Assembly: GCA_020724365.1 (NCBI GenBank)
Contig: DYHD01000002.1
Location: 393 to 64,392 of the forward strand
Source: Thermodesulfovibrio yellowstonii
GTDB taxonomy: Bacteria; Nitrospirota; Thermodesulfovibrionia; Thermodesulfovibrionales; Dissulfurispiraceae
Reading direction: 5' to 3'
Length of the DNA stretch: 64,000 nt
The notes beneath the pieces were generated by a model. The model worked only from the letters and a program-made list of their open reading frames with translations, had not been told where the DNA came from and made no database searches. The translations under genes were made by a program, and so were the position numbers. Below are positions 1,211 to 45,392 of this stretch, in pieces; the stretch's first letter is position 1; every line of letters starts with the position of its first letter.

Positions 1211-1213
1211 ATT

Positions 1214-3408: not shown

Positions 3409-4760
3409 TAGAAAATATCATAGTATTGAAAGGAACTATCGAACTTCAATCACCAGCCTTGATAGGCTGCGGCAAAGATGACCATACTGATATTGATCTT
3501 ATAAAAGACTCAAAGGGTATCCCTTACATACCTGCCACCTCTCTGGTGGGGGTCTTAAGAGACTTTATAAAACCATCTTCAATGAATGAAGGTGTGCTTA
3601 AAGAATTTTGGGGCTACTCCGTCGATGAAAATTCACAACAGAGTTCTATTACTTGTGATGACCTAAAGGCAATTAATGGTGATGCTAAGCAATCACTTGT
3701 AGAGATAAGAGATGGCGTAGCCATTGATCCAAAGAAAAGCATTGTAGAGGATAAATCTAAATATGATTTCGAGATAATTAAAAAAGGAACAAGATTTTCC
3801 CTCTATTTAGAGGCAAGATGCAAACAAGGTAGAATAAATGAATATTCAAGATTTATTAGAACTATTGAAGCATCCCTCAACAATGGATTGATTAGAGTTG
3901 GGGCAAAGACAAACAGCGGTCTCGGCAGGCTCAAACTAAAGGATGACGCCATCTATATATTTGATTTCAAGGATAAAAAAGATGTTCTTTCATGGCTTAA
4001 GCAAGATTTTACAAATAAAAAACCTGCTGATGAAATCTTGCCATTGAATATTAAATCTAATGACTTCATAATTGAAGCAAGCTTAAGATTGAAAAACTCA
4101 TTTATCATTCGTTCATATCCATCTCTGCCAGAAGACCCAGATGCAGTGCATATCACATCCGCAGATGATTATGTCATACCAGGTTCCTCTCTTAAAGGAG
4201 CTTTAAGGTCAAGAGCTTTGAGAATTGTAAATACCATTGAAAAACCCTATTCGATAATCGAAAATCTCTTTGGAGATGTGTATAACGATGAACAGCAAGC
4301 AAAACAGAAAGGCAGGAAAAAAGGTGATGCCTTTAAGGGCAGGGTTACAGTCGAGGAAGTAATCTTGCCGAGATTTATCTCAGAGCTACAGACTCGTATA
4401 AAAGTTGACCGTTTCACAGGTGGGACGATTGCGTCTGCCCTGTTTGAGACAAAACCACTTTTCAGTTCAAATAATGAAGATATAAAACATCTCAAGATAA
4501 CGATAAAGAACTGCGAACCATACGAGGCAGGACTTATGCTTCTCACCCTAAAAGATCTCTTCACAGGAGACCTTGTAGTAGGTGGCGAAAAGAACATAGG
4601 AAGAGGAGTATTTGAAGGGTTGGGTGCAGAGATTAGTTATGACGGTAAGACAATCTCCATTGATGGCAGTCTCTCAAAATTGGAGCAAGACAAAATACTT
4701 ACACTTAATAATCTTGTAAAAGCCTTTGCAAATTTCAGTGGTGGAGGTGCATCGTGTTAG
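3405..4760 (+). CDS. Tandem Cas7-Cas7 RAMP fusion (Cas7-2x-like), 451 aa
   Basis: Two complete RAMP units: 'GIPYIPATSLVGVLRD' ... 'GAKTNSGLGRLKL' and 'IPGSSLKGALRSRALR' ... 'VVGGEKNIGRGVFEG'. 4-nt overlap with the upstream gene. Confidence 0.75.
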   Translation: MIENIIVLKGTIELQSPALIGCGKDDHTDIDLIKDSKGIPYIPATSLVGVLRDFIKPSSMNEGVLKEFWGYSVDENSQQSSITCDDLKAINGDAKQSLVEIRDGVAIDPKKSIVEDKSKYDFEIIKKGTRFSLYLEARCKQGRINEYSRFIRTIEASLNNGLIRVGAKTNSGLGRLKLKDDAIYIFDFKDKKDVLSWLKQDFTNKKPADEILPLNIKSNDFIIEASLRLKNSFIIRSYPSLPEDPDAVHITSADDYVIPGSSLKGALRSRALRIVNTIEKPYSIIENLFGDVYNDEQQAKQKGRKKGDAFKGRVTVEEVILPRFISELQTRIKVDRFTGGTIASALFETKPLFSSNNEDIKHLKITIKNCEPYEAGLMLLTLKDLFTGDLVVGGEKNIGRGVFEGLGAEISYDGKTISIDGSLSKLEQDKILTLNNLVKAFANFSGGGASC

Positions 4761-5305
4761 AGAACAATGGCTTAAAGCTGAAAAAAATTAAAAGCACTGT
4801 TTTGCCAGTAAATATTACTAAATCCCTAAAACAAGAGATTTCAGAAAGAATAAAATCTGATGCCTATGTTGTAGCCTATCTTGATTATGCAGTACTTATT
4901 GGAAAATTCAAAAACGACGAATTTCAATTTTACAATAATGAGCAGTTCCAAGACAGATTTGCCCAGAGAATTCGTATATTCCAAAATGATCGTGAACTGC
5001 ATATATGGCGTTGTAATGACAATAACTTCAAAGGGCGTCTGAGGATTGATGACGAAACAGGTGAAGAGACAGTTGCAGTTGATGCATATCAGGTAATGCT
5101 TGGTACTAATACAGAAAGACTCGGTGAATACACAAAGCTAATAGAAGAAAGAGGGGCTGAGTTAATCCTGCCATTGAAAAATATCTCAGTTGATGACAAA
5201 AAGAAAAGGCTTTTTCTAAAGACGAGGAACTACATCGGCTATAATCCAATACAGCAGGCAGGATATGTGGACTGCAGATTTGTAGAAATTACAGATAAAG
5301 CTTAG
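4754..5305 (+). CDS. Small non-RAMP type III subunit, Csx19-like by size and position (183 aa)
   Basis: No RAMP motifs. It overlaps the preceding gene by 7 nt and sits between the double Cas7 and the Cas7-insertion gene, as csx19 does in III-D loci (assignment by context only). Confidence 0.45.
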   Translation: MLENNGLKLKKIKSTVLPVNITKSLKQEISERIKSDAYVVAYLDYAVLIGKFKNDEFQFYNNEQFQDRFAQRIRIFQNDRELHIWRCNDNNFKGRLRIDDETGEETVAVDAYQVMLGTNTERLGEYTKLIEERGAELILPLKNISVDDKKKRLFLKTRNYIGYNPIQQAGYVDCRFVEITDKA

Positions 5306-5320
5306 AAGGAGTAAGAGAAA

Positions 5321-7318
5321 ATGGAAAAAGCAATAATATTTATAAAAGAAGTTAATAAAGGAAAATACAGTTGTAATATTCAATTCAAATCTTCAAACAA
5401 GACTATGCCTCTATCTGACTTTAAGCATTCAGACCCAATGTCTTTCAATGAAAAAGAAGTTGAGGTGCTTAGAGAGAAAGGACAGATTATGAAAATAGTC
5501 TGTGAAGGCAAAGAGATATACAATAAACATTCACCTAAAGGACTAACAAAGCTTCAAAAAGCACAAAGAAGTGCTTCTATTCAAAACCACAACCATTCAC
5601 CTGCAATCGCGCCATATAACTTTATCCCTCTTAACACAAAAGTAGTCCAAGCTGAGCGAATACCTGACTTTGATATTTATCATGCAGACAGATTTACAGG
5701 CTATATTGACCTCGATATAGAGAGCCTTACGCCATTATATATCAGAGACACACTGATGGATGAGGAGATTAAGCAAAGAGATGAAAATGATAGACAGAGA
5801 CAAAATGATGCAACTTGCTCAGTATATGCAAACCCCGATTTTTTCTCACCCGCTGGGCGCCTCCGCATACCCGGCAGTTCCTTGAGAGGCATGATAAGAA
5901 CAATGGTTGAGATAACGAGCTATGGCAAATTTGGATTTTATAATGATAAGAGGTTGTATTATAGGGGATTGGCTGATAAGAGTGAACTTAGAATAGAATA
6001 TCAGAAGAATATGTCATCCTTTGATAAAAATAGCAATAAAAATATCTATAAAATGTCAGCAGGCTATATATTCAAGAAAAATCTTAAATATTTCATAGTC
6101 CCAGCAAAAAATTATCGTCAGATTACTAAAGACGAAGCTAAAAAATTGATAAAAGAAATTGGTGGCAAATATAAAGAGTTCAGGTTCTATGATGTCAAAA
6201 CAGGCTTTATTGTAGTTTCTGGAGATATGAATAATAAAAAGAGAGATTGGTTTATTGAATATAAGGACACAGATCAAAAACCCATTGAGATTAATAGAAA
6301 AGACATCCAAGATTACAGAGATGACATTAACAGAAATAAAGATGTTCCAAACTTGCTCGAATTATCAAGAAAAGGTGAAGTGCCGTGTTTTTATACCAGA
6401 TATTTTGATAACAAAAGTATTCAAAGGGTCTCCTTTGGTCACACAGGCATGTTCAGGCTCGCTTATCGTCAGACAATAGGAGACCATATCCCTGCAAATC
6501 TTAAAGATGAACAAATTATTGACATTGCTGGAGCCATCTTTGGCAATGAAAAGACTTTTGCTGGTAGAGTATTTTTTGAGGATGCCTTTTGTTCAAGCAG
6601 TAAAGAAGATGCCCTCATGGGTGAGAGGACTCCTAATATCCTTGCAGGACCTAAACCCACGACATTTCAGCACTATCTTGAACAGGGTAGCAATAACCTC
6701 GAAAATCACCCTAAAAATCTTGCCCATTATAATTCCAATACCAACATCAGAGGCTATAAGCTCTATTGGCATAAGGGCGGAAATGAGTGGGAACAGCAAA
6801 ATCAACAAGAACTCAGAGAGCACCAGAGTCAATATACGAAGATTAACCCTGTAAAAGAAGGAGTTATGTTCAAGGGTCGGATAAGATTTGAAAACCTCTC
6901 TGAGATTGAACTTGGTGCATTACTTTTTGCCATTGACCTACCCGAAGGACTTGCACACAAGCTTGGCATGGGCAAACCATTGGGATTAGGCTCAGTCAGG
7001 ATTACACCAAAGCTTTATATCTCAGATAGAAGCAGCCGTTATTCTGATTTATCAACCGAGTGGGCTGAACCTATTGAAGAATCTTCTGACATAGATAAAT
7101 TCAAAAAAGCTTTTTCAGATTATGTGATTAAAAAATTAGGTGAGACAGCAAATACGCTCTGGGAGACCAAAAGGCTCGGAGAACTCAGGATAATGCTCGA
7201 TTTTATAAGTAAGCCATCTAATAATAGCACTCGATATATGAAAATAGAAGCTGGCAATAATAAAGACAATGAATTTAAAAATCGAAATGTTCTGCCTCGA
7301 CCTTCTGAAGTCAGATAA
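5321..7318 (+). CDS. Large Cas7-family RAMP with a big internal insertion (TIGR03986/all1473-like), 665 aa
   Basis: 'APYNFIPLN', 'RIPGSSLRGMIRTMVEIT' and the distal G-rich loop 'KLGMGKPLGLGSVRI'. About 190 aa of non-RAMP sequence lies between the core motifs, plus a ~95-aa N-terminal extra region. RBS-like 'aaggag' lies upstream. Confidence 0.7.
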   Translation: MEKAIIFIKEVNKGKYSCNIQFKSSNKTMPLSDFKHSDPMSFNEKEVEVLREKGQIMKIVCEGKEIYNKHSPKGLTKLQKAQRSASIQNHNHSPAIAPYNFIPLNTKVVQAERIPDFDIYHADRFTGYIDLDIESLTPLYIRDTLMDEEIKQRDENDRQRQNDATCSVYANPDFFSPAGRLRIPGSSLRGMIRTMVEITSYGKFGFYNDKRLYYRGLADKSELRIEYQKNMSSFDKNSNKNIYKMSAGYIFKKNLKYFIVPAKNYRQITKDEAKKLIKEIGGKYKEFRFYDVKTGFIVVSGDMNNKKRDWFIEYKDTDQKPIEINRKDIQDYRDDINRNKDVPNLLELSRKGEVPCFYTRYFDNKSIQRVSFGHTGMFRLAYRQTIGDHIPANLKDEQIIDIAGAIFGNEKTFAGRVFFEDAFCSSSKEDALMGERTPNILAGPKPTTFQHYLEQGSNNLENHPKNLAHYNSNTNIRGYKLYWHKGGNEWEQQNQQELREHQSQYTKINPVKEGVMFKGRIRFENLSEIELGALLFAIDLPEGLAHKLGMGKPLGLGSVRITPKLYISDRSSRYSDLSTEWAEPIEESSDIDKFKKAFSDYVIKKLGETANTLWETKRLGELRIMLDFISKPSNNSTRYMKIEAGNNKDNEFKNRNVLPRPSEVR

Positions 7319-7606: not shown

Positions 7607-8029
7607 TCAAAAGGTTAGATTCATATCAGCCTGAACAACGGTCTCCTTATAATAAACAGCAGGATTAGCCAGTTTGACACCATCGACAAAATCATCTTTT
7701 GACATCCCAAATAGAGGGACATTGAGAGGACAGGCAAGCATTTGAGCTCCCTCTTTATATAGCATAAAGAGAAGTTCTTCAACAGAAGGCAATTCCATCT
7801 CTTCCATCCTCTTCATTACTGCATCGCTTATTTCCTCCGACTGATCTGGCAGACACTTAAGTTCTTTCAGCCTTCCTTTATGGACAGCATTAACCCCTCT
7901 TGAGCCAAAAAATATTGTAACCCTTGAACCTTCTCTTAGAAGACTCAAAGCCGTCATAAGTGCGTTATATACCTGACATAGTTCATCATGAAAACACATT
8001 ATAGATACATTTTTGGTTATCTTCGCCAT
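7607..8029 (-). CDS. DsrE/DsrF-like family protein (COG2210, DsrE2/3-like), 140 aa
   Basis: Size and pattern of DsrE-fold proteins, with a conserved-looking Cys in 'MLACPLNVPLFGM'. 'aggag' RBS. Last gene of the DsrE-type operon. Confidence 0.6.
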   Translation of the reverse strand: MAKITKNVSIMCFHDELCQVYNALMTALSLLREGSRVTIFFGSRGVNAVHKGRLKELKCLPDQSEEISDAVMKRMEEMELPSVEELLFMLYKEGAQMLACPLNVPLFGMSKDDFVDGVKLANPAVYYKETVVQADMNLTF

Positions 8030-8071
8030 ATTTTGCTCCTTTCGAATCCGACTTACATCTTTTTTTTTAAA

Positions 8072-9223
8072 CTATGTGGATGCTGAGTTAGCCTTTACAG
8101 CCTCCCTCTTTTCCTCAGATCTTATTTTATTAATCATGAGAAAAGCATACATAGCTACGGCCATAACTATACTTGCATAGTTTACAGACGCTAACAAAGA
8201 ACTTGGATAATAGTTTCCATAAACATAAACTCCCAGAACCTGGGAGCCAACAAAGGCTCATATCATCCCCCACTTAGTAGGTGAAAATCTACTCTTCACA
8301 AAATCTTTTCTTAAATAATCACTGAGCAGATATATGCAAAAAATACCCCATGAGACTGCTGTCACATAAGACAAGTTGATTGAAAGAAATAATGAAGCAT
8401 CAACATTAATTGCAAAGTATTTTTGCAAATATAACATAAGCCTATAAAAACTCACCCCAAAAAGGCAAATAATTGGGATAACCATAAAATAAGCGGGCAA
8501 CAACGGAATGTCGGGTAATCTTGAGGATTTTATTTGGAGGTAAACCAAATATGATAGTTTAGTAACAAACAAGAAAACGCCGATACCTAACACAAATAAT
8601 GTTCCAAAGGCTGCAATCGAGGCTATTTCACTATTTATTGCAGTGGCTGCGATTCCTGAACCGGTTAAACAAACAAGGCCGAATGCAAAAACATCAAGCA
8701 GCCATGTAAAGTTTAATTTGTCGGTATCTACAGGGTTAGTGAGCCATATTTTGAGCACCTTGAATTCAAGTTTGAGAATAATGAGCCAAAGAGCCCCGAA
8801 GAAAAGCAAAGAAGGCAGCATCAGGGACTGTAAAATTGAAGACAATTGAGGCAAAAAAAATGCGAGAGGACCCCAAATTATATTTGCAGTCATAGATAAA
8901 GAAGCAATGGGCGAAAAAACCCCTATGTTGATTTTGGGATCATTTATAAAGGTATTATACTCTTCCTTATTTGCCAGCCACATTACAAGACTTTTAAGAA
9001 AAACCAATGTAAAAAGCAGATGGGTAACGGTAAATACGAGCATGATCCCAACTAAGGGAAAAAGGTGAATGTTTTGAGCTATGGTCAACTCAGACCATGG
9101 AATATCGAATAGCATAACCGGCTTACCCCAGCGTGGCTCTACAAACTGCAAATAAACAAAAGGCATTAAGGCAACGCCTCCAGCGGCTACTGATGTCTGA
9201 AAAATTATTGGTGTGAATTTCAT
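8072..9223 (-). CDS. TDT/TehA-like polytopic membrane protein with in-frame TGA at 8258-8260 (candidate Sec; the conventional ORF is 8258..9223)
   Basis: The 321-aa ORF is almost entirely hydrophobic helices and ends 'FSPTKWGMI' + TGA. The same frame continues for 61 stop-free codons ('AFVGSQVLGVYVYGNYYPSSLLASVNYASIVMAVAMYAFLMINKIRSEEKRE..') encoding further TM-like sequence. It ends at TAG 8072-8074, 42 nt before the next gene. The family call rests on overall topology and a 'W..F.G' C-terminal motif and is tentative. Confidence 0.5.
8230..8246 (-). promoter_or_regulatory. SECIS-like hairpin 11 nt downstream of the TGA at 8258-8260
   Basis: mRNA sense CUCCCAG-GUU-CUGGGAG, a perfect 7-bp stem. 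If the closing pair opens, the loop reads GGUUC. Confidence 0.4.
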
Positions 9224-9318
9224 GATTTATCCTCGTATAGTAGTCTTTTGGTGCGAGTTTTTAGGCAAAATGTTCAAAATATTTATAGAGCAATATGGTT
9301 TAAATAAGCCTCCTTCTT

Positions 9319-9600
9319 TCAAAATGCCCCTATTACATTATCTTCCTTTATCATCAGGTCAACGAGCATATCATAATCAATTTTTTTGATATCTTTTTCT
9401 ATGTCTCCTTCGCCAAGCCCTCTGAGCCTTCTATCCTCATCAAGCAGATAAACCGTTCCGCAGAAACCCTCAAGGCGGTCTTTCACTGCGAAGTAAACCG
9501 CATTCTGGATAAGGCATATATCAGCAGCCATATCACGGGCTATTTTTATGCCCCTTTTACCTTCTGTTGTATCAGGGGCGGTTTTTATTATCACGAGCAT
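9319..9600 (-). CDS. DsrH/TusB-like protein, 93 aa
   Basis: Size, an 'MLVIIKTAP' type N-terminus and its position as third gene after DsrE- and DsrF-like ORFs. Confidence 0.55.
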   Translation of the reverse strand: MLVIIKTAPDTTEGKRGIKIARDMAADICLIQNAVYFAVKDRLEGFCGTVYLLDEDRRLRGLGEGDIEKDIKKIDYDMLVDLMIKEDNVIGAF

Positions 9601-9614
9601 CTTTACCTCCAGAC

Positions 9615-9968
9615 TTAAAATATCATCGTTACATCTGTAGAGCTTAATATTTCAGCAATCTCAGAACTGCCTAACACCTTTACCCCGTCTATAAGATGTG
9701 TAGTCTCCATGCCTTCTTCCTTCAAAGAAGCCCTCTCTGCATATATTTCAACATTCATATCAATGCAGTCCTTTATCCCTTCTTCAATGCTTAAATATTC
9801 AGTATTGCTCGTATCCTGTCCCTTTCTTGCAGCATTAACACCGCCGTCAATTAAAATAAGATTAACTGAAATCCCCTCAGTTATGCCTCCAAGCGCATGC
9901 CTTATCGCCTCAGATGCGTCAATGGTGCCGTATGGTGGTTTTCTTAAAATAATATTTATACTCTCCAT
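9615..9968 (-). CDS. DsrF/TusC-like protein, 117 aa
   Basis: DsrE-fold pattern 'INIILRKPPYGT..A.EA.R.ALG' and 'LILIDGGVNAA'. Second gene of the E-F-H triplet. Confidence 0.6.
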   Translation of the reverse strand: MESINIILRKPPYGTIDASEAIRHALGGITEGISVNLILIDGGVNAARKGQDTSNTEYLSIEEGIKDCIDMNVEIYAERASLKEEGMETTHLIDGVKVLGSSEIAEILSSTDVTMIF

Positions 9969-9979
9969 AAAAAATCCCC

Positions 9980-10324
9980 TTATACACCAAAATTCAAAAA
10001 AATCGGTCGAGACTTTATCACATTAAAAAGCCCTTTCAAAGAACTCATCTCTCCACCTTTGACTGAATCCTCGCCCGCAAGACCGCGGTTCATCATACAC
10101 CCTGTTCATATATCAACCTTCAGTCCCCGCTCTACAAGGTCTTCCAAAGCCGATAATGATTTAGGAAGCTGCCCTTTTACAATTGAGAAGACGCCGTCAC
10201 CAGAGGCAATAAGCCTCACCTTTAGCCCCTTCTTTATTGCGATATCAGCAAGATTAAATATTGTGTGTGTATTTTCAAAACTATAGGGCGTTGTTGTAAG
10301 AAACATCACTATCTCCTTTTGCAT
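9980..10324 (-). CDS. DsrE/TusD-like protein with in-frame TGA at 10106-10108 (candidate selenocysteine); 114 aa if read through
   Basis: The listed ORF 10106..10324 (72 aa) stops at TGA. The same frame continues for 41 codons ('TGCMMNRGLAGEDSVKGGEMSSLKGLFNVIKSRPIFLNFGV') to TAA at 9980-9982, 11 nt before the next start. The result has normal DsrE/TusD length, and the TGA sits where the active-site Cys lies in the 'h-h-C-x5-RG' motif. Confidence 0.65.
10075..10088 (-). promoter_or_regulatory. Small hairpin with GGUCUU loop 17 nt downstream of the TGA at 10106-10108 (weak SECIS candidate)
   Basis: mRNA sense CCGC-GGUCUU-GCGG. It is only a 4-bp stem. The loop contains the GGUC that I recall from the E. 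coli fdhF SECIS apical loop. Confidence 0.3.
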
Positions 10325-10325
10325 T

Positions 10326-10667
10326 TTAATGCCTCCTTTGTCCGGGATATACTCCCTTTTTTGTTACAGGACAACAAGCAGGGGGTGGCAATTCTTCCTG
10401 ATAATCTTTCCTGAGAATCTCCAGTATATCAGGCACTAAGGGGTCTCTGAGGAAATAACATCTGAGCCTTCCATCCATATAATAGTCAATTAAGCCGTGC
10501 GTTCTTAAAATAGTGAGGTGTTGCGAGGTATTAGACTGGCTGATTTCAAGGAATTCCTCAAAATCGCTTACACATTTTACCCCTTTGGTTAGTTCCTCCA
10601 GTATTTGTATCCTTACAGGATGTGCAATTACTTTTAGTAGTTCTGCTTTTTTCCCTAAAGAAAGCAT
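10326..10667 (-). CDS. ArsR/SmtB-family transcriptional regulator, 113 aa
   Basis: wHTH 'HPVRIQILEEL...CVSDFEEFLEISQSNTSQHLTILRTHGLI' and a C-terminal 'PPPACCP' cysteine pair. Its stop lies 1 nt from the DsrE-like start. Confidence 0.8.
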   Translation of the reverse strand: MLSLGKKAELLKVIAHPVRIQILEELTKGVKCVSDFEEFLEISQSNTSQHLTILRTHGLIDYYMDGRLRCYFLRDPLVPDILEILRKDYQEELPPPACCPVTKKGVYPGQRRH

Positions 10668-10869
10668 ATCTCAAATACCCTTTTATTTATGACTACCAAA
10701 TATTATGTTTTAGGCTGTAAAAATGGCTTATAATTATTCCCTGCTTATGGAGATTATATTTTGAAACTTGAATTTTCTTATGTTAGAATATCTTAATATT
10801 TTAATATATTGTTTTGTCAATGTAAAAAATTACTCCATTTTGGAAATTTTGATTCATAAAGGAGGAATT

Positions 10870-12009
10870 ATGCGTAAGCCTGTCTATCTCGATTATAATG
10901 CAACAACCCCTCATGATGCTGAGGTTATCTCTGCAATGCGACCATATTTAGAGGAACATTTCGGCAACCCCTCAAGCTCTCACCAATATGGGCTAATCTC
11001 AAGAGAAGCCATAGAATTAGCTAGAAGACAGATTGCATCATTGTTAAACTCTTACCCTGAAGAGATTGTGTTTACAAGTGGTGGGACTGAATCTAATAAT
11101 CATGCTATAAAAGGCATTGCCTATGCTAATTTACATCGAGGCAATCATATAATCACATCTCAGATTGAACATCCTTCGGTAACAGATGTTTGTGAATACC
11201 TTCGTAAAAATGGTTTTGAGATTACATATATACCTGTAGATGAATCAGGGCTTGTGAATCCCACTGATATCGAAAAGGCAATTACAAACAGGACAATTTT
11301 AATAACTATCATGCATGCCAATAATGAAGTGGGCACAATTCAACCAATAGAAGAGATTGCTGAAATAGCTTCAAAAAATGGCATAATTTTTCATACAGAT
11401 GCAGCTCAGTCTCTTGGAAAGATCTTAGCGGATATCAATTCATTGAGAGTTGACCTCCTTACCATAGCCGGTCATAAATTATATGCACCAAAAGGAGTCG
11501 GTGCCCTTTATATTAAACAAGGCACTGTCCTAACAAAGTTAATGCATGGAGCAGGTCAGGAAAGAGGCATAAGAGCTGGAACGGAGAATGTCCTTGAGAT
11601 TGTCGGGCTGGGCAAGGCATGTGAGATAGCAAAAAGAGATTTTGATAAAAATTATATGCAGATGCAACAGACAAGAGACATGCTATATCTTACACTCAAA
11701 GAAAAGATAAAAGATTTGAGACTTAACGGGCATCCTGAAAAAAGACTTCCAAACACCTTGAGTATCAGCTTTAAAGGTATAAATGCTAATTCCCTTATTT
11801 CAAAAATCAAGGACTATGTAGCGGTCTCTGCTGGTGCTGCGTGTCATTCTGGTGTGGAAAAAATATCTTCCGTCTTGACGGCTATGAGAGTCCCATATGA
11901 GTGGGCTAAAGGCACAATACGATTTTCAACAGGCAAGATGACCACCGATGAAGAGATTCAATATGCTATTGGAGTTATCTCGGAAACTATAAATTCACCT
12001 CATCTCTAA
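10870..12009 (+). CDS. Cysteine desulfurase (NifS/IscS class V aminotransferase)
   Basis: 'VYLDYNATTP', 'FTSGGTESNN', 'TIAGHKLYAPKGVGALY' (PLP-Lys), 'SAGAACHSG' (active-site Cys). I place the start at the ATG 10870 preceded by 'aaggagg'. The ORF-track start 10768 (TTG) adds an implausible AT-rich leader. Confidence 0.85.
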   Translation: MRKPVYLDYNATTPHDAEVISAMRPYLEEHFGNPSSSHQYGLISREAIELARRQIASLLNSYPEEIVFTSGGTESNNHAIKGIAYANLHRGNHIITSQIEHPSVTDVCEYLRKNGFEITYIPVDESGLVNPTDIEKAITNRTILITIMHANNEVGTIQPIEEIAEIASKNGIIFHTDAAQSLGKILADINSLRVDLLTIAGHKLYAPKGVGALYIKQGTVLTKLMHGAGQERGIRAGTENVLEIVGLGKACEIAKRDFDKNYMQMQQTRDMLYLTLKEKIKDLRLNGHPEKRLPNTLSISFKGINANSLISKIKDYVAVSAGAACHSGVEKISSVLTAMRVPYEWAKGTIRFSTGKMTTDEEIQYAIGVISETINSPHL

Positions 12010-12027
12010 AATATGGGAAAAGATATA

Positions 12028-12801
12028 TTATTTCACCTCGTGGCTAAGTCCAATATAATAAACCTGAGGCTTTGAGTTGTAACCAGGACTTAATACTGTA
12101 ACCCTATTGGTTTTGACGATCTTAGTAACTGGATCATCAGGATTATGGATGTTTCCTATCTTTCTGGCGCCGAAGGCACATGCATCAACACAAGCGGGTT
12201 GCAAGCCTCGAGTTATGCGATGATAGCAAAAGTTGCATTTCTCTGCGACATGTAAAATAGGATGTATAAATCTTATGCTGTATGGACAATTTGAAATGCA
12301 GGCTGAGCAGCCAATACACCATTTTCTATCGACTAGAACAACGCCATCGCTTGTTTTGTAAGTTGCTCCAACAGGGCAAACTTCTACGCAAAGAGGGCGA
12401 TCGCATTGATTACATAGTTTAGGTACAAACATTCCTTTAGCTATATCTACATTGGGGACTTCTATCCCAAGCGGATTATTTCTAATAAACCCGTCACGTC
12501 CCTGTTTTGGGGAGTCAACAATCATTTTGCCATCTTTTTTGATTATATATCTTTCTATCCATGTTCGGGCTAAATTTATATGATAGGGAAGCTCATTTTC
12601 AATCTGACATGCCTTGACGCACATACCGCATCCAATACATTTAGTTGAATCTACGAGGAATATCCACCTGATGTTAGATTGTTTTGCAATATCTGCTTTG
12701 GCTTCTGAAGCTAAAAACTCTATGGCACCTAGTGGCAGTGACATGCCAGCTATAGTTATAATTCCAGCCTTTAAAAAATCTCTTCTGGAGTGTTTATTCA
12801 T
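12028..12801 (-). CDS. Periplasmic 4x[4Fe-4S] ferredoxin-type subunit (NrfC/PsrB/DsrO-like) with Tat signal
   Basis: 'SRRDFLKAG' twin-arginine motif. Cys clusters 'CIGCGMCVKAC', 'CNQCDRPLCVEVCP', 'CIGCSACISNCP', 'CNFC....PACVDAC'. Confidence 0.8.
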   Translation of the reverse strand: MNKHSRRDFLKAGIITIAGMSLPLGAIEFLASEAKADIAKQSNIRWIFLVDSTKCIGCGMCVKACQIENELPYHINLARTWIERYIIKKDGKMIVDSPKQGRDGFIRNNPLGIEVPNVDIAKGMFVPKLCNQCDRPLCVEVCPVGATYKTSDGVVLVDRKWCIGCSACISNCPYSIRFIHPILHVAEKCNFCYHRITRGLQPACVDACAFGARKIGNIHNPDDPVTKIVKTNRVTVLSPGYNSKPQVYYIGLSHEVK

Positions 12802-12811
12802 ATTCGTATCC

Positions 12812-13312
12812 TCACTTAATATTAGCCTTATGGGGGTTATGACACGCTATACATTCCATTTCTGGATTATGGTTATCAGGGTCTATCAACTTGAGTTTAA
12901 TATCCCCTTTTGGCAATTCGGAGTATTGTGTCGGACGATAGGGAAGGTCTGAATGACATCTTAGGCAAAGCCCTCTGCCCTTATCGATAGCAAGTTTAGT
13001 GGGATTGTCGGGGTGATCAATTGCAGGTCCATGACAGCTCTCGCAAGAAACTTTTGCATGCAAAGATGCCTCTACTTGTTTAAACTCATTTGCGTGGCAG
13101 TCCATGCAATATGAATTGCCGCGATATTTCACCTTGAAGTCTTTCCACTCCTGCTGGTTTGCAAAACGGTGCCATTGATATCTGTAATCATTATTAGCAG
13201 CCTTGAAGGATGGAGCTATAATCATTCTGGCTCCGACAATACCCGCTACCCCTATAATGGTAATAAGAACTAAGGCAATTAATATTTTTCCAAGTCCAAT
13301 TTGACCTTTCAT
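12812..13312 (-). CDS. Membrane-anchored tetrahaem c-type cytochrome, 166 aa
   Basis: N-terminal TM helix plus four CXXCH motifs (CMDCH, CESCH, CLRCH, CIACH). Confidence 0.8.
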   Translation of the reverse strand: MKGQIGLGKILIALVLITIIGVAGIVGARMIIAPSFKAANNDYRYQWHRFANQQEWKDFKVKYRGNSYCMDCHANEFKQVEASLHAKVSCESCHGPAIDHPDNPTKLAIDKGRGLCLRCHSDLPYRPTQYSELPKGDIKLKLIDPDNHNPEMECIACHNPHKANIK

Positions 13313-13332
13313 TTATATAATCTCCTCACAAA

Positions 13333-14520
13333 TCATTCTTCATCCCTTTCGTCTTTATCAAGGGGTAGATATTTTATGCCGAGCATATATCCTGTCCAAA
13401 TAAAACCAAGTAAACCAATGCTGTAAGCAATTTCTACAAGACTGGGGGTATAAGATGCAAGTTCATAGAGAGAGCCTCCAAGCTCATTGTCAAAAGGAGT
13501 GAAGGCAAGAAAAGGAACAAGCTGACCTACGATAATAAAATCATATCGTCCAATATAAAGCCCTACTACCACTAGAAGACCGGCTAACGCCATCTTATTG
13601 ATATCCTTGAATCTTGAATAGACCAATAATGCAATTGGTATCAAATAAGTCATTAAAACTTCGCCGACCCAGAAATTCAAAGAGAATTTGCCTGTCAAGA
13701 GTATGAAAGCCTCTTTTTTGTGTGCATAATGACTTGAGACCACCTTCCAATATAAAAAGAAAAGGGCGATCACGAGAAGATAAACCAGCATCTTGCCAAT
13801 TATCCGAAGTGACTCTTTAAGCTTTTCACTCATTTGTGCGCCTGTCATCTTATATGTGTATGTGGTTATAAATATAATCATAGCTGAAGATGTAAAAAGA
13901 GCTGATAGAAGGAAATATATGGGATAGTATGGTCCAAACCATAAAGATCTTGAATAGTTGAGCCCAAAGATAGCACCATGGTAGCTGTGCACTACAACAG
14001 CTGCAACAAATGCCACTATTGCTACAACCTTGACAAGCAAGTCATGATGTCCCCTTTTTATAACAAGATATAGTTCAAGTGAGATTAAAAGTATATAAAG
14101 CGTGATGCTCATTGCTACTACTCCCATAGGAGCCGTGAAATGAGTGGTCAATAACAAAAAAGGCGCCCTAAGCGGTGAAGCCAAATCTGCTGCTACGCTT
14201 AAGACGCCTGCCACAACGATAATTACTGCAAGATAAAGAGCCCTGCGGCTGATGACATCAAATTGTTTAAAGCCTAAAACTATACCGAATGAGGAAATAT
14301 AACTTAATCCGATGCTGGAGATAGCAAAAGCATAATTTACAATAAAAATACCCCATGGAACTTCTTTGCTGGTAGCGAGTGCGTGATGACCGAAAATCGC
14401 TATATGGACTCCGCCATATAAGAACCCTGCCAGCATAATCAAACCCGCTACCAAGCTTAGCATAAACCATCTAGATTGAGGCTCAGCCTGAGAAGCAGTC
14501 AAAAGCTGTTCTGTTCGCAT
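13333..14520 (-). CDS. NrfD/PsrC-family integral membrane quinone-interacting subunit, 395 aa
   Basis: Polytopic hydrophobic protein of NrfD size, immediately upstream of the cytochrome c and FeS subunits (typical NrfD-type module). Confidence 0.65.
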   Translation of the reverse strand: MRTEQLLTASQAEPQSRWFMLSLVAGLIMLAGFLYGGVHIAIFGHHALATSKEVPWGIFIVNYAFAISSIGLSYISSFGIVLGFKQFDVISRRALYLAVIIVVAGVLSVAADLASPLRAPFLLLTTHFTAPMGVVAMSITLYILLISLELYLVIKRGHHDLLVKVVAIVAFVAAVVVHSYHGAIFGLNYSRSLWFGPYYPIYFLLSALFTSSAMIIFITTYTYKMTGAQMSEKLKESLRIIGKMLVYLLVIALFFLYWKVVSSHYAHKKEAFILLTGKFSLNFWVGEVLMTYLIPIALLVYSRFKDINKMALAGLLVVVGLYIGRYDFIIVGQLVPFLAFTPFDNELGGSLYELASYTPSLVEIAYSIGLLGFIWTGYMLGIKYLPLDKDERDEE

Positions 14521-14546
14521 AATTTCTATTAGCCTCCTATAGAATG

Positions 14547-14906
14547 TTAGTTAGAATTTTTGGCTGTCCGAAGGGAGTCGAGAATTTCATTAGTCTCCTT
14601 TTGTGTGGCTGTTGCATGTGCTTGAGAATAATCTTTCTTTTTTTTAAGTGAATCGATTATCGTTCCACATATCCATCCAAAGATAAAACCTAAAGCAATA
14701 AATAATGAACTAGCAACTATAATCCCGATTATCATTGATATCGCTGTTACTATAATATTAGCATTTCCGAAGATATATTTGCCAATATTTGTACCTACTA
14801 CACCAGTTAAATATGAAACTGGTAGCAGCCACACGAGCAAATAAATAATCAAAGCACCCATTGCTCCTAAATAGGACCCAATTTTTGGAAAGTTAACAGT
14901 TCTCAT
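14547..14906 (-). CDS. Small membrane protein (about 3 TM), unknown function
   Basis: Hydrophobic ORF with 'gaggaggg' RBS; first gene of the NrfD operon. Confidence 0.5.
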   Translation of the reverse strand: MRTVNFPKIGSYLGAMGALIIYLLVWLLPVSYLTGVVGTNIGKYIFGNANIIVTAISMIIGIIVASSLFIALGFIFGWICGTIIDSLKKKKDYSQAHATATQKETNEILDSLRTAKNSN

Positions 14907-20368: not shown

Positions 20369-21304
20369 TTAGGAGTTTAGAAGGTCATCATAAGGATATT
20401 CCCTTAAAAATGTGAGGAATTCAGTAACTGCATGTGATATGATTGCATTTTTATTCATGACAAGATAAAAGTTTCTATTAAGTCTGCCTTCTTTGATGCT
20501 CAATGCCACCAGACTACCATATTTAATCTCTTTTCTTATAACCCATTTCGATACAATAGAGATGCCCATACCACTTTCTACAGCTTCCTTAATAGATTCT
20601 GTGCTGCCAATAGTTATTGCAAGGTTTATATCTTTAAATTTAAGACCTTTTGATGAGAAATATTTTTCAGTTACTTGTCTCGTTCCAGATCCATCTTCTC
20701 TTGTTATAAAAGGTTCCTTTGTAATCTCTGCAAGCGAAACCACCTTTCTTTTTACCCATGGATGATTTTGGGGGATAATAAGAAAAAGCTCATCCTGTAT
20801 TATAGGTTCAAGCGTCACCTTATATTTTGACATTTCTCCTTCAACAAGCCCAAATTCAATTGCACCTGTATTAAGAAGTTCCATAATTTTTCTGGTGTTT
20901 TCTATGTATATATTCATCTTAACTTTGGGATGCATTTTCTTGAAATCGAAGATAACGGTTGGAAGGATATGATTACCAATGGTTGTGCTAGCTCCAATAG
21001 TTACATTACCTTTGGTATGTCCTGTTATTTTAGCAATCTCTTTTTCAGCAGCCGAGTAAAGCGCAAGGATATATTTTGCATATTTATAAAGAACCTCGCC
21101 TGAAGGAGAAAGACTAATAGTGTTGCTTGTTCTATCGAAAAGTTTAGTCTCATAATATTCTTCCAGAGCTTGAATCTGCAGACTTACGGCAGGTTGTGTG
21201 AGATGGACAATCTCTGATGTCTTTGAGAAACTTTTGGTTTCAGCAACGGTGCAGAAAACTTTTAATTTATGATCTTCTAAGCTCATAATGAGTAATAATA
21301 ACAT
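20369..21304 (-). CDS. LysR-family transcriptional regulator
   Basis: N-terminal HTH 'LKVFCTVAETKSFSKTSEIVHLTQPAVSLQIQALE' plus a substrate-binding domain. The true start is possibly ATG 21286. Confidence 0.85.
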   Translation of the reverse strand: MLLLLIMSLEDHKLKVFCTVAETKSFSKTSEIVHLTQPAVSLQIQALEEYYETKLFDRTSNTISLSPSGEVLYKYAKYILALYSAAEKEIAKITGHTKGNVTIGASTTIGNHILPTVIFDFKKMHPKVKMNIYIENTRKIMELLNTGAIEFGLVEGEMSKYKVTLEPIIQDELFLIIPQNHPWVKRKVVSLAEITKEPFITREDGSGTRQVTEKYFSSKGLKFKDINLAITIGSTESIKEAVESGMGISIVSKWVIRKEIKYGSLVALSIKEGRLNRNFYLVMNKNAIISHAVTEFLTFLREYPYDDLLNS

Positions 21305-44907: not shown

Positions 44908-44961
44908 ATGCTGTTCCTCCCAAAAATTGATTTTTTTATTTATCTTTTGTTTATAATACCA

Positions 44962-45200
44962 CATTAGGTGCCATATGGCTTAATAGGGAATCCCGTGAGG
45001 CTTTTAATTATAGTCCGAGTCGGGAGCGGTCCCGCCGCTGTAACCGGTACGAAAGCCCACAAAGGCAGTCGTTAGTTGTTAGTATATTAGGTAAACGATT
45101 AAAACTGTCATCGCCACTGAAAAGGTTTACTTTTTGGGAAGGCGGGTGAGTAGGGAATTAAATATTAGAAACCGGAAGCCAGAAGACCTGCCTGATAAAG
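44962..45200 (+). promoter_or_regulatory. Cobalamin (B12) riboswitch aptamer
   Basis: Conserved blocks 'aatagggaa', 'ggtcccgccgctgtaaccgg', 'cgccactg....gggaaggcg' and the B12 box 'agccagaagacctgcc'. Upstream of the cob operon on the same strand. Confidence 0.85.
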
Positions 45201-45345
45201 ACAGTGAATAGTTGTTGAGTTTGAATGTAAAAACTGAATGCTCTTATTCCTCACCATTCATTACATAATACTGACTATATACTGTTCACTAGTGTAAATC
45301 CTTCACGCGGAGGAAGGCAGAGGATGAAGTAAAACAGGGTGCAAT

Positions 45346-45382: not shown

Positions 45383-45392
45383 GGAGGTTTAT

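What the first reader, a model, noticed from the sequence alone, without database searches (positions are those of the whole stretch)
7607..10667. ArsR - DsrE(TGA) - DsrF - DsrH - TDT-like membrane protein(TGA) - DsrE2-like operon: candidate undescribed sulfur/selenium relay-transport system
Six co-directional minus-strand genes have gaps of 1 to 95 nt. They are an ArsR/SmtB regulator with a C-terminal Cys pair, a DsrE/TusD-F/TusC-H/TusB-like triplet, a polytopic TDT/TehA-like membrane protein and a COG2210 DsrE2/3-like protein. A cysteine desulfurase gene is divergent from it (10870-12009) and could donate persulfide or selenide. Two of the six genes carry in-frame TGA codons followed by stop-free, sensible coding sequence and a nearby hairpin (see the separate findings). 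DsrEFH/TusBCD is known from dsr sulfur oxidation and tRNA 2-thiolation. I do not know of a described system that couples a DsrEFH-like relay to a TehA-type channel under ArsR control with Sec in both relay and channel. Plausible roles are import, export or detoxification of a chalcogen species (polysulfide, thiosulfate, selenite, tellurite) with handover to a persulfide/perselenide relay.
Basis: partly seen in the sequence, partly recalled or inferred. Interest (0 to 1): 0.8.

Follow-up and report, generated by a model that had tools for sequence, protein, structure and literature searches.

The report
Two-selenoprotein chalcogen relay-and-channel operon
This is a real six-gene operon in which a repressor controls a small sulfur/selenium-carrier complex and a membrane channel-like protein, both made with the rare amino acid selenocysteine. 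The two selenoprotein families are already catalogued, but their widespread pairing, often next to the selenium-activating enzyme SelD, points to an untested selenium (or reactive-sulfur) uptake and handover pathway.

Summary
Six minus-strand genes (10667-7607) sit 1-95 nt apart: ArsR, DsrE(TGA), DsrF, DsrH, a TDT/SLAC1-fold membrane protein(TGA) and a DrsE_2 protein. A NifS-like cysteine desulfurase gene lies divergent to them.

Both TGAs are selenocysteine codons. The reading frame and peptide continue after the TGA in all relatives examined. Each TGA is followed by a conserved, covarying SECIS hairpin. The DsrE Sec aligns with TusD Cys78.

The claim of "undescribed" holds only in part. The membrane protein is NCBIfam "selenoprotein TsoY" (Haft & Tolstoy 2025), and DsrE-like UxxC selenoproteins have been listed since 2005.

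Three things appear new:
- In 49 of 80 genomes TsoY sits beside a DsrE/YchN-like CxxC or UxxC protein.
- In about 24 genomes it sits with selD and a selenium-type LysR regulator.
- In Nitrospirota an invariant ArsR-DsrE(U)FH module carries interchangeable cargo, either TsoY+DrsE_2 (here) or SQR-like/MMPL/rhodanese/YeeE-like genes.

My best reading is an ArsR-controlled chalcogen conduit with a cytoplasmic relay. The substrate is probably selenium and possibly reactive sulfur. I class it as a new variant of known kinds, with no experimental function yet.

The parts
10326..10667 (-). ArsR/SmtB-family repressor (113 aa). It has four invariant cysteines: Cys32 at the classic ArsR 'CVxD' position, Cys70 and the vicinal Cys98-Cys99 in the motif PACCP.
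   Evidence: Pfam HTH_5 and NCBIfam NF033788, 75.5 bits against a cut-off of 55. It is not TsoR (31 against 115) and not BigR (44 against 155). All four Cys are invariant in 16 orthologues from Nitrospirota and Desulfurivibrio.
10780..10826 (-). Promoter-like site (TTTACA-17-TAAAAT) overlapped by an AT-rich palindrome or half-site cluster. This is the candidate ArsR operator. It lies between the operon and the divergent nifS-like gene.
   Evidence: Promoter scan and palindrome 10788-10807. It holds the only local cluster of matches to ATATTCAAATAT in the window. Relatives carry a clear 12-4-12 palindrome, ATATTCAAATAT-N4-ATATTTGAATAT, overlapping TTGACA upstream of the orthologous ArsR. The window copy is degenerate.
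9980..10324 (-). DsrE/TusD-like selenoprotein (114 aa), with Sec73 in the motif VDI-U-TGC (UxxC).
   Evidence: Read-through translation. Pfam DsrE, 46 bits. U aligns with E. coli TusD Cys78 and with the first Cys of the YchN CxxC (1jx7, E=1.7e-12). The TGA and the 41-aa tail are conserved in all 24 loci. The top 120 database homologues are almost all cut to 72 aa at this codon.
10106..10108 (-). Sec codon (TGA) of DsrE.
10074..10089 (-). Core of the DsrE SECIS hairpin (CCGC-GGUCUU-GCGG plus one closing pair), starting 16-17 nt after the UGA.
   Evidence: Present in every locus. 86.7% of cells are paired, against 37-53% when the partners are slid. The fifth pair occurs as GC, UA, CG and UG, and one C-G changes to U-A. 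No shuffle out of 500 reaches the observed covariation score. The single-sequence fold is not significant on its own (z=0.75).
9615..9968 (-). DsrF/TusC-like subunit (117 aa). Cys68 is invariant.
   Evidence: Pfam DsrE, 54.6 bits. TIGR03010 TusC, 36.9 bits, below the cut-off of 94. 26% identity to E. coli TusC. Cys68 is conserved in 13 of 13 orthologues.
9319..9600 (-). DsrH/TusB-like subunit (93 aa).
   Evidence: Pfam DsrH, 39 bits. TIGR03011, 41.6 bits, just below the cut-off of 49.2. 32% identity to E. coli TusB.
8072..9223 (-). Selenoprotein TsoY (383 aa). It is a 10-helix membrane protein with a TDT/SLAC1/TehA-like fold. Sec322 lies in the motif GMI-U-AFV (UxxV).
   Evidence: NF047643, 522 bits against a cut-off of 250. 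Pfam SLAC1, 36 bits. The AF2 model has pLDDT 91.5 and pTM 0.90. Foldseek finds SLAC1 7en0 and TehA 3m72/3m73 with target-normalised TM 0.71-0.75. Sec/Cys alternation is shown, and the TGA is present in at least 68 of 80 loci.
8258..8260 (-). Sec codon (TGA) of TsoY.
8228..8248 (-). TsoY SECIS hairpin. It has a 9-bp stem (GGCUCCCAG/CUGGGAGUU) and a GUU loop, and starts 12 nt after the UGA.
   Evidence: Fold energy -16.7 kcal/mol, z=-1.67. Across 37 distinct sequences 91.6% of cells are paired and 3 pairs change on both sides. No shuffle out of 500 reaches the observed score. The terminator scan also flags it, which is an artefact of the hairpin.
7607..8029 (-). DrsE_2 (COG2210, DsrE2/3-like) protein (140 aa) with four conserved Cys, including the motif LACPLN.
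   Evidence: Pfam PF13686, 58 bits. NF047629 DsrE2, only 35 bits against 210. Orthologues (73-93% identity) lie behind TsoY in L087/L088 and behind the SQR-like gene in L092.
10870..12009 (+). Divergent NifS/IscS-type cysteine desulfurase-like gene (379 aa). It is a possible persulfide or selenide donor.
   Evidence: Aminotran_5, 270 bits. NifS model, 476 bits, below the cut-off of 531. 63% identical to a NifS-like gene 2.5 kb from TsoY in L041. NifS-like genes lie within 5 kb of TsoY in about 26-32 of 80 loci. This neighbour is absent from the closest relative, L087.
20369..21304 (-). Context only: a selenium-metabolism-associated LysR regulator, about 10 kb away.
   Evidence: NF040786, 292 bits against a cut-off of 250. 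It is the only direct hint in the window that the genome runs selenium metabolism. Its neighbours are housekeeping genes.

Best explanation
This is an ArsR-autoregulated operon for moving a chalcogen species across or at the membrane and handing it to a cytoplasmic covalent relay.

Shown:
- Six co-directional genes are present.
- Two of them are selenoproteins: DsrE with Sec at the TusD-Cys78 position, and TsoY.
- TsoY adopts a TehA/SLAC1-type fold.
- DsrE-family and TsoY genes are conserved neighbours across phyla.
- The ArsR subfamily has four invariant Cys and a conserved palindromic operator.

Inferred mechanism:
1. The repressor leaves its operator when its Cys32 and Cys98-99 thiols are modified or ligated by the chalcogen or metalloid species.
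2. TsoY conducts a small chalcogen anion, such as hydrogen selenite, selenide, polysulfide or sulfite. These are the kinds of substrates seen in other TDT-family members.
3. Sec322 lies at the cytoplasmic start of the short pore-side helix 9, just after a Lys/Arg-rich loop. There it captures the substrate as a Se-Se or Se-S adduct.
4. The DsrE(U)FH complex takes it over on Sec73 (UxxC) as a perselenide or persulfide.
5. It then passes to DrsE_2, the NifS-like enzyme or, elsewhere in the genome, SelD.

I consider selenium the most likely substrate (about 50%) and reactive sulfur the next (about 30%).
For: Gene anatomy and family assignments.

Sec decoding.

Fold.

Coupling of the relay and the channel:
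- A DsrE-like CxxC/UxxC gene lies a median 83 nt upstream of TsoY in 49 of 80 species-level genomes. About 23 of these are themselves Sec forms.
- A DsrE(U)FH triplet lies beside TsoY(U) in Thermodesulfovibrionia-like Nitrospirota (window, L087, L088) and in Desulfobacteraceae/Desulfotignum (L020, L021).

Lean towards selenium:
- The arrangement selD-(nifS)-dsrE-like-tsoY, next to a LysR_Sec_metab-like regulator, occurs in about 24 of 80 genomes, mostly Bacillota. Several of these are selenate or arsenate respirers.
- The DsrE-like partner best resembles the DsrE domain of the selenium protein YedF. That domain has a CGxC motif (PMC5322559).
- The window itself encodes a selenium-type LysR.

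Regulation:
- The same ArsR subfamily (66-94% identity, four invariant Cys) heads the DsrE(U)FH operons. In Desulfurivibrio it heads DsrE-like+TsoY.
- A 12-4-12 palindrome overlaps its promoter.
Against: - No experiment exists for any component.
- In most Nitrospirota the same ArsR-DsrE(U)FH module is followed by an SQR-like flavoprotein, MMPL, rhodanese and a YeeE/TsuA-like protein instead of TsoY. That gene set looks like sulfur handling.
- Cys forms of TsoY occur only in ArsR/NifS contexts and never with selD. The ArsR-type version therefore need not feed SelD.
- ArsR-family control more often marks detoxification or efflux than uptake.
- No selA, selB, selC, selD or TusA-like gene was found in the window.
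- The placement of Sec322 rests on a predicted model plus the positive-inside rule. I could not inspect coordinates.
- The window's operator copy is degenerate, and the NifS neighbour is missing in the closest relative.
Confidence: 0.55

Rival explanations
1. This is a reactive-sulfur-species module with no specific role in selenium. The ArsR senses persulfide or polysulfide. DsrE(U)FH is a high-reactivity persulfide relay, with Sec simply acting as a better nucleophile than Cys. TsoY moves sulfite, thiosulfate or polysulfide, much as the TDT member SSU1 exports sulfite.
For: In about 10 distinct Nitrospirota loci the same ArsR-DsrE(U)FH is followed by an SQR type III-like flavoprotein (108 bits), MMPL, rhodanese, a YeeE/TsuA-like transporter and sometimes DrsE_2. 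DsrEFH/TusBCD and DsrE2/3 are sulfur carriers by established knowledge. The best specific NCBIfam hit of the ArsR is the sulfite or persulfide sensor BigR, though far below its cut-off. Cys-form TsoY occurs without selD.
Against: TsoY is co-operonic with selD and a selenium-type LysR in about 24 of 80 genomes. The ArsR lacks a Cys at the SqrR Cys41 position. The SQR-like protein also weakly matches the 'N-terminal to SelD' oxidoreductase family, so that cargo is not unambiguously sulfur-related.
Confidence: 0.3
2. This is a metalloid detoxification or efflux system for tellurite, arsenite, antimonite or excess selenite. ArsR derepresses a TehA-like exporter, and the thiol/selenol proteins act as sacrificial binders or reductants.
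For: The regulator belongs to the ArsR/SmtB family, with Cys32 at the As(III)-binding 'CVxD' position and a vicinal C-terminal Cys pair. The fold is that of the tellurite-resistance protein TehA. Many carriers are arsenate or selenate respirers. NCBI names the related regulator TsoR a 'metalloregulator'.
Against: There are no ars, ter or teh genes, methyltransferase or efflux ATPase in the operon. The selD-dsrE-like-tsoY operons point to assimilation. TehA's own role in tellurite resistance is indirect, by established knowledge.
Confidence: 0.1
3. The TGAs are genuine stops or decay. The 72-aa and 321-aa products are the real proteins, or the genes are pseudogenes, and the block is a chance juxtaposition.
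For: Gene callers annotate the truncated forms almost everywhere. The DsrE hairpin alone folds no better than shuffled sequence. No Sec machinery is visible in the window.
Against: The frame and peptide sequence after the TGA are conserved at 72-93% identity in Nitrospirota, and the frame and the UxxC...RGL motif persist in a second phylum. Cys replaces U in full-length TsoY homologues. Both hairpins show compensatory changes. The tail of DsrE completes the YchN/TusD fold alignment. A truncated DsrE would lack its active site.
Confidence: 0.03

Closest known systems
Selenoprotein TsoY (NCBIfam NF047643/NF047644) of the Tso 'three selenoprotein operon' neighbourhoods (Haft & Tolstoy 2025, mSystems 10:e0141724; listed in PMC13188914)
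   Same: The membrane protein is a member. It scores 522 bits against a cut-off of 250, carries the UxxV motif, and has the same Sec position and SECIS as 68 or more other genomes.
   Different: The regulator here is not TsoR (31 against 115 bits). No TsoA/B/C/X match was found among the operon's proteins, and no further TGA-interrupted gene was seen in the window. Here TsoY follows a DsrE(U)FH triplet. I could not read the primary paper, so I do not know whether it reports the DsrE-like, NifS or SelD neighbours.
DsrEFH (Allochromatium vinosum, PDB 2HY5) / TusBCD (E. coli, PDB 2D1P) sulfur-relay heterohexamers
   Same: There are three adjacent genes in E/D-F/C-H/B order. The profile matches 2hy5_A and 2d1p_A. 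Identity to TusC and TusB is 26-32%. The catalytic residue lies at the TusD Cys78 position.
   Different: The catalytic Cys is Sec and is followed by a second Cys (UxxC), as in YchN. Scores are below the TusC/TusB equivalog cut-offs, and there is no NCBIfam hit for the E subunit. No dsrAB/dsrC, tusA/tusE or mnmA context is present. The operon is under ArsR control and is linked to membrane proteins.
'DsrE-like protein' selenoprotein family (UxxC; Zhang & Gladyshev 2005, PMC1088965; one in Desulfovibrio vulgaris, PMC1794560)
   Same: PF02635 domain with a UxxC redox motif.
   Different: Those papers list the family without function or partners. Here it is the E subunit of an E-F-H triplet, and it or its single-gene relatives are systematically paired with TsoY.
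YedE/YedF (FdhT/FdhU) candidate selenium transport system (Lin et al. 2015, PMC5322559)
   Same: The logic is the same. A polytopic membrane protein is paired with a small cytoplasmic protein carrying a DsrE-like CGxC domain, and both sit near selD, Sec-lyase-like and LysR_Se genes.
   Different: TsoY has a TDT/SLAC1 fold, not the YeeE/YedE fold, and is itself a selenoprotein. There is no SirA/TusA domain. This is an analogy, not membership.
TehA / SLAC1 / SSU1 / Mae1 (TDT family, Pfam PF03595)
   Same: Ten-helix fold with target-normalised TM 0.71-0.75. The Pfam score is above the gathering threshold. Family substrates include chalcogen oxyanions, by established knowledge.
   Different: Identity is only 11-16%, and a profile search found no sequence-level hit in the PDB. 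A conserved Sec sits in a helix break before helix 9, a feature unknown in TehA or SLAC1.
SqrR/BigR persulfide-sensing ArsR repressors (PDB 6O8K, 3PQJ)
   Same: ArsR fold. It is among the best PDB sequence matches and is Cys-based.
   Different: The window protein has no Cys at the position aligned with SqrR Cys41. Its Cys pattern is different (Cys32, Cys70, Cys98-99). The BigR model scores 44 against 155.

Membership tests
Selenoprotein TsoY (NF047643) | HMM score above the curated cut-off (250 bits) | tested here: met
   522.4 bits, E=7.5e-157, covering 2-363 of the protein.
Selenoprotein TsoY (NF047643) | Sec at the conserved UxxV site, with Cys in non-selenoprotein homologues | tested here: met
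   GMI-U-AFV. Cys forms read QWG[LIM]V-C-ALVGSQ. The TGA is present in at least 68 of 80 loci.
Selenoprotein TsoY (NF047643) | Bacterial SECIS hairpin downstream of the UGA | tested here: met
   9-bp stem and GUU loop, 12 nt after the UGA. 91.6% of cells are paired, three pairs show compensatory changes, and no shuffle out of 500 reaches the observed score.
Tso system (three-selenoprotein operon: TsoR, TsoA, TsoB, TsoC) | TsoR-type ArsR regulator (NF045707, cut-off 115) | tested here: not met
   The window ArsR scores 31.4 bits. A true TsoR (139.5 bits) precedes TsoY in L041 and similar loci.
Tso system (three-selenoprotein operon: TsoR, TsoA, TsoB, TsoC) | TsoA/TsoB/TsoC selenoprotein genes adjacent | tested here: not met
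   None of the six operon proteins matches them. No other plausible TGA-interrupted gene occurs in the 64-kb window. TsoA is adjacent to TsoY in about 11 other loci, including L020.
DsrEFH / TusBCD sulfur relay | Three paralogous subunits encoded in E(D)-F(C)-H(B) order | tested here: met
   Pfam DsrE, DsrE and DsrH, with alignments to TusD, TusC and TusB.
DsrEFH / TusBCD sulfur relay | Catalytic Cys78 of DsrE/TusD | tested here: inconclusive
   The position is occupied by Sec (TGA) rather than Cys. This is chemically equivalent or better, but it is not the defining residue.
DsrEFH / TusBCD sulfur relay | Equivalog-level similarity (TIGR03012/03010/03011 cut-offs) | tested here: not met
   E subunit: no NCBIfam hit at E<=0.01. 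F: 36.9 against 94. H: 41.6 against 49.2.
DsrEFH / TusBCD sulfur relay | Partner proteins (TusA donor, DsrC/TusE acceptor, dsrAB or mnmA pathway) | tested here: inconclusive
   No CPxP TusA-like small ORF occurs in the window, and none lies in the operon. The rest of the genome was not available.
DsrEFH / TusBCD sulfur relay | Heterohexamer (alpha2 beta2 gamma2) assembly and persulfide transfer | not testable with these tools
   This needs biochemistry or a multimer prediction.
DsrE-like selenoprotein (Zhang & Gladyshev) | PF02635 domain with a UxxC motif | tested here: met
   PF02635, 46 bits. The motif is U-T-G-C. The family is defined.
ArsR/SmtB metalloregulators | Winged-helix HTH_5 domain above the NF033788 cut-off | tested here: met
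   75.5 bits against 55.
SqrR/BigR persulfide sensors | Cys pair at the alpha2 (SqrR C41) and alpha5 (C107) positions, and a score above the BigR model cut-off | tested here: not met
   43.7 bits against 155. The residue aligned with SqrR Cys41 is not Cys.
DsrE2 sulfur carrier (NF047629) | HMM score above 210 bits | tested here: not met
   35.2 bits. Only the broad Pfam DrsE_2 family is met, at 58 bits.
TDT / SLAC1 family (PF03595) | Pfam gathering score and a ten-helix TehA-type fold | tested here: met
   36.2 bits against 27.9. Foldseek probability 1.00 to 7en0, 3m72 and 3m73, with target-normalised TM 0.71-0.75.

The most novel reading that the evidence does not exclude
TsoY and its DsrE-family partner, each in a Sec or a Cys form, would make up a widespread and so far unrecognised selenium acquisition and trafficking route. 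It would be analogous to, and an alternative to, YedE/YedF. The channel's own selenocysteine would catch incoming selenium covalently at the cytoplasmic mouth and pass it as a perselenide to the DsrE-type carrier, and from there via a NifS-like enzyme to SelD. Nitrospirota and some Desulfobacterota would have upgraded the carrier to a Sec-containing DsrEFH complex, placed under a dedicated thiol-based ArsR sensor that plugs the same relay into alternative cargo.
Probability: 0.3. Interest if true: 0.8.

Novelty: new variant of a known kind. Interest (0 to 1): 0.6.

Why it matters
How bacteria take up selenium specifically and deliver it safely to selenophosphate synthetase is still largely open. 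YedE/YedF are only candidates. A membrane selenoprotein and a DsrE-type carrier that sit in one operon with selD in many anaerobes give a concrete, testable alternative pathway.

A selenocysteine at the catalytic position of a DsrEFH/TusBCD-type relay would also be the first such relay built on selenium chemistry.

The modular ArsR-DsrE(U)FH cassette in sulfate- or sulfur-cycling Nitrospirota suggests a regulated chalcogen-trafficking hub. Current annotation misses it entirely because both genes are truncated at the TGA in almost all database entries.

Tried and rejected
- Single-sequence PDB search with DsrE gave spurious top hits to designer pentatricopeptide proteins. I rejected these as compositional or repeat artefacts. 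A profile search then found YchN, DsrE and TusD.
- Profile search of TsoY against PDB sequences found nothing. Only the fold comparison links it to TehA/SLAC1.
- tblastn with the window's DsrE, DsrF and DsrH against 80 TsoY loci suggested that DsrE neighbours are rare. That was a sensitivity artefact. Clustering the neighbours showed a divergent DsrE-like gene in 49 of 80 loci.
- The metagenome scan with DsrF returned only 7 loci. I used exact-protein look-ups for further loci instead.
- I looked for Sec machinery, other selenoprotein genes and TusA-like ORFs in the window and found none. Genes around the selenium-type LysR are housekeeping.
- Rfam has no match in the operon.
- The primary Tso paper (PMC12013261) is not in the library. 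Literature searches for TsoY/TsoR and for a TehA-selD link found nothing beyond one review table.
- I considered SqrR/BigR-type persulfide sensing for the ArsR and rejected membership.
- The terminator-like hit at 8248-8228 is the TsoY SECIS, not a terminator.
- Organism names could not be recovered for the source contig. The affiliation to Nitrospirota rests on the names attached to DsrE homologues.

Full report
**1. What is in the sequence**

The minus strand between 10667 and 7607 carries six ORFs:
- ArsR, 10667-10326.
- A DsrE-like gene, 10324-9980, interrupted by TGA at 10108-10106.
- A DsrF-like gene, 9968-9615.
- A DsrH-like gene, 9600-9319.
- A polytopic membrane protein, 9223-8072, interrupted by TGA at 8260-8258.
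- A 140-aa protein, 8029-7607.

The gaps are 1, 11, 14, 95 and 42 nt. Pfam assigns HTH_5, DsrE, DsrE, DsrH, SLAC1 and DrsE_2, all above their gathering scores. The divergent gene at 10870-12009 is a NifS/IscS-type class-V aminotransferase. No terminator-like site falls in an intergenic gap. The one strong hairpin flagged, at 8248-8228, is the SECIS described below.

**2. Both TGAs are selenocysteine codons**

*TsoY.* Most database homologues stop at 321 aa, exactly before the TGA. Homologues of 373-388 aa carry Cys there, followed by ALVGSQVLGVYVYG, which is also what follows the window's TGA. Among 80 species-representative genomes from many phyla, at least 68 have TGA at the site and about 6 have TGT or TGC. 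A 9-bp hairpin with a GUU loop starts 12 nt after the UGA. Across 37 distinct sequences 91.6% of cells pair, three pairs change on both sides, and none of 500 shuffles reaches the observed covariation.

*DsrE.* The top 120 homologues are nearly all 72-aa truncations. In all 24 loci I translated, from Nitrospirota and two Desulfobacterales, the TGA is retained in the motif [IL]-U-x-x-C. A conserved 41-aa tail follows. The U aligns with the catalytic Cys78 of E. coli TusD and with the first Cys of the CxxC of YchN, the best PDB match of the family profile (1jx7, E=1.7e-12). DsrE 2hy5_A and TusD 2d1p_A are matched more weakly. The hairpin CCGC-GGUCUU-GCGG lies 17 nt after the UGA. It is present everywhere and shows GC/UA/CG/UG variation at its closing pair and one C-G to U-A exchange. 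Folded alone it is not better than shuffled sequence, so the comparative evidence carries the argument.

Sec machinery itself is not in the window. There is no tRNA, no sel genes and no other plausible selenoprotein gene. A LysR at 20369-21304 does pass the curated cut-off of the 'selenium metabolism-associated LysR' model.

**3. What the parts are**

*Membrane protein.* It scores 522 bits (cut-off 250) on NCBIfam NF047643, 'selenoprotein TsoY'. A 2026 review lists that family with motif UxxV and attributes it to Haft & Tolstoy 2025, who defined the Tso 'three selenoprotein operon'. I could not obtain that paper. An AlphaFold2 model (pLDDT 91.5, pTM 0.90) matches SLAC1 and TehA structures with target-normalised TM 0.71-0.75 at 11-16% identity. 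No sequence-level PDB match exists.

In the model Sec322 lies in a break between a short helix (315-319) and helix 324-337. The loop before it is rich in Lys and Arg, and so is the C-terminal tail. By the positive-inside rule this places Sec322 at the cytoplasmic start of helix 9, which in TehA is a pore-lining helix. This is inference, because I could not inspect coordinates.

*DsrE(U), DsrF and DsrH.* These are a genuine TusD/C/B-like triplet, but they fall below the NCBI equivalog cut-offs. 'DsrE-like protein, UxxC' has been a listed selenoprotein family since 2005.

*DrsE_2.* The last gene is a broad DrsE_2 family member, not an equivalog of DsrE2.

*ArsR.* It is not TsoR and not BigR/SqrR. 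Its Cys32 (the classic ArsR CVxD position), Cys70 and the vicinal Cys98-99 (PACCP) are invariant in 16 orthologues.

**4. Comparative genomics of TsoY**

I clustered all ORFs within 5 kb of TsoY in the 80 genomes. The most frequent neighbours are:
- A divergent DsrE/YchN-like protein of about 106 aa with a CxxC motif, in 49 loci. It lies on the same strand, with its end a median 83 nt upstream of TsoY. In about 23 of these loci it is itself a selenoprotein (L-U-G-[ST]-C-M-D-A-R-G-L). Its best NCBIfam resemblance is the DsrE-like domain of the selenium protein YedF.
- An ArsR, in 46 loci. This is TsoR in the representative locus I scored (L041).
- A NifS-like desulfurase, in 26-32 loci.
- A LysR close to the selenium-metabolism LysR model, in 27 loci.
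- SelD, in 24 loci.
- A CGGC-domain protein, in 15 loci.
- TsoA, in 11 loci.

Two layouts dominate. In Bacillota (Desulfosporosinus, Desulfitobacterium, Thermincola, Mesobacillus selenatarsenatis and others) the order is LysR, divergent from selD-(nifS)-dsrE-like or CGGC-tsoY. In Desulfobacterota, Actinomycetota and others the order is ArsR-dsrE-like-tsoY or TsoR-TsoA-x-tsoY. Cys-form TsoY is found only in the ArsR/NifS type.

In the Desulfobacteraceae locus L020 the order is TsoR-TsoA-DsrE(U)-DsrF-DsrH-flavoprotein disulfide reductase-TsoY(U). In L021 TsoY is directly followed by DsrE(U)-DsrF. The coupling of a DsrE-family carrier to TsoY is therefore a conserved, cross-phylum feature. The DsrE(U)FH version occurs in two phyla.

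**5. Comparative genomics of the ArsR-DsrE(U)FH module**

The module is invariant in every Nitrospirota locus I retrieved, with the ArsR 66-94% identical. What follows it varies:
- In about ten distinct loci it is an SQR type III-like flavoprotein, usually with an MMPL transporter. Some also carry rhodanese, a YeeE/TsuA/YedE-like membrane protein or a DrsE_2 orthologue.
- In one pair of loci nothing follows.
- Only in the window and its closest relatives (L087 from GCA_037444245.1, and L088) is it TsoY plus DrsE_2.

The same ArsR subfamily heads DsrE-like+TsoY in Desulfurivibrio (L034, L036). It also lies directly upstream of TsoY in one MAG labelled Nitrospira (L032). Upstream of these ArsR genes a 12-4-12 palindrome, ATATTCAAATAT-N4-ATATTTGAATAT, overlaps a TTGACA promoter. 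In the window a degenerate copy overlaps the best promoter-like site at 10826-10798, in the region shared with the divergent nifS-like gene.

**6. Mechanism**

Shown: the gene content, Sec decoding, the fold, the synteny, the invariant regulator cysteines and the operator.

Inferred: the ArsR is released when its thiols react with or bind the substrate. TsoY conducts a small chalcogen anion, and Sec322 at the cytoplasmic mouth captures it covalently. DsrE(U)FH takes it over on Sec73 and passes it on to DrsE_2, the NifS-like enzyme or SelD.

Selenium is favoured by the selD/LysR_Se operons, by the resemblance to YedF, and by the parallel with the YedE/YedF proposal of Lin et al. 2015.

Reactive sulfur is favoured by the alternative cargo in Nitrospirota and by the established sulfur chemistry of DsrEFH and DsrE2/3.

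Metalloid detoxification is favoured only by the ArsR type and the TehA resemblance.

I put these at roughly 0.5, 0.3 and 0.1 within the relay-transport frame. The reading that the TGAs are true stops is effectively excluded.

**7. Comparison with known systems, and novelty**

The locus contains a bona fide TsoY and a DsrE-like UxxC selenoprotein, so neither selenoprotein is new. It is not a Tso system in the strict sense, because it has no TsoR and no TsoA/B/C. It is not an equivalog of DsrEFH/TusBCD. It works like YedE/YedF without being homologous in the membrane part.

Three things I could not find described in the accessible literature:
- The systematic pairing of TsoY with DsrE-family carriers.
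- Its operonic link to selD.
- The Sec-containing DsrEFH cassette with a dedicated ArsR and swappable cargo.

The primary Tso paper may cover some of this.

Verdict: a real feature, and a new variant of known kinds. It is of moderate to high interest because it makes selenium (or chalcogen) trafficking experimentally approachable.

Noticed in passing
window 71-7318 (+): A run of type III-D CRISPR-Cas effector genes ends convergently just before the operon. It comprises Csm3-like, Csx10-like, Csx7/Cmr4-like and Csx19 genes and a 665-aa TIGR03986-family RAMP protein with similarity to the C-terminal part of gRAMP Cas7-11. I did not look for a CRISPR array.
   Followed up: partly
window 12028-14906 (-): An operon is convergent with the nifS-like gene. 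It encodes an NrfD-like membrane protein (395 aa), a small multihaem cytochrome c (166 aa) and a TAT-signal 4Fe-4S NrfC/TtrB/DsrO-like protein (257 aa). No catalytic molybdopterin subunit is present. It is a quinone-linked electron module of unknown acceptor, and the cytochrome weakly resembles ExtN/ExtO selenite/tellurite-reduction proteins. The same neighbours occur on the related contigs L105/L106.
   Followed up: partly
window 20369-21304 (-): A LysR regulator passes the curated cut-off of the 'selenium metabolism-associated LysR' model (292 against 250 bits). It sits among housekeeping genes (aroE, ilvE-like, YraN, lptC/lptA), not next to sel genes.
   Followed up: partly
window 44949-45209 (+) and 45339-46694 (+): A cobalamin riboswitch (82 bits) lies upstream of a ThiC-family gene. 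That gene also scores highly on the BzaB model (B12 lower-ligand ThiC-like). This suggests B12-regulated benzimidazole synthesis rather than thiamine synthesis.
   Followed up: no
L082, L085, L096, L098, L102 (Nitrospirota relatives), downstream of DsrH: The same ArsR-DsrE(U)FH cassette is followed by a 395-aa SQR type III-like flavoprotein. That protein also weakly matches the 'N-terminal to SelD' oxidoreductase family. After it come an MMPL transporter, a TP_0789/LolA-like protein, and in L096 a rhodanese and a YeeE/TsuA/YedE-like protein. This alternative cargo set has no described function.
   Followed up: partly
L020 6386-11155 (Desulfobacteraceae MAG): One gene string reads TsoR - TsoA - DsrE(U) - DsrF - DsrH - 478-aa flavoprotein disulfide reductase (GGTCLNWGC) - TsoY(U). 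That is three selenoprotein genes plus a pyridine-nucleotide disulfide reductase that could recycle the relay.
   Followed up: partly
15 of the 80 TsoY loci (e.g. L007 1204-1536, L013, L030, L056): A 110-aa CGGC-domain protein rich in Cys (no NCBIfam hit) lies immediately upstream of TsoY where no DsrE-like gene does (e.g. L013, L030, L056), or between ArsR and the NifS-like gene (L007, L010, L018). It may be an alternative carrier.
   Followed up: no
window 9980-10324 (DsrE), PDB search: Residues of about 26-82 of DsrE(U) give strikingly good phmmer E-values (down to 6e-21) against designer pentatricopeptide-repeat proteins (5i9h and others). The shared motif resembles 'g.l.kal.l.edlve.G.k.D..T'. 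This is almost certainly a repeat-summed artefact, but it shows how such hits can mislead.
   Followed up: yes
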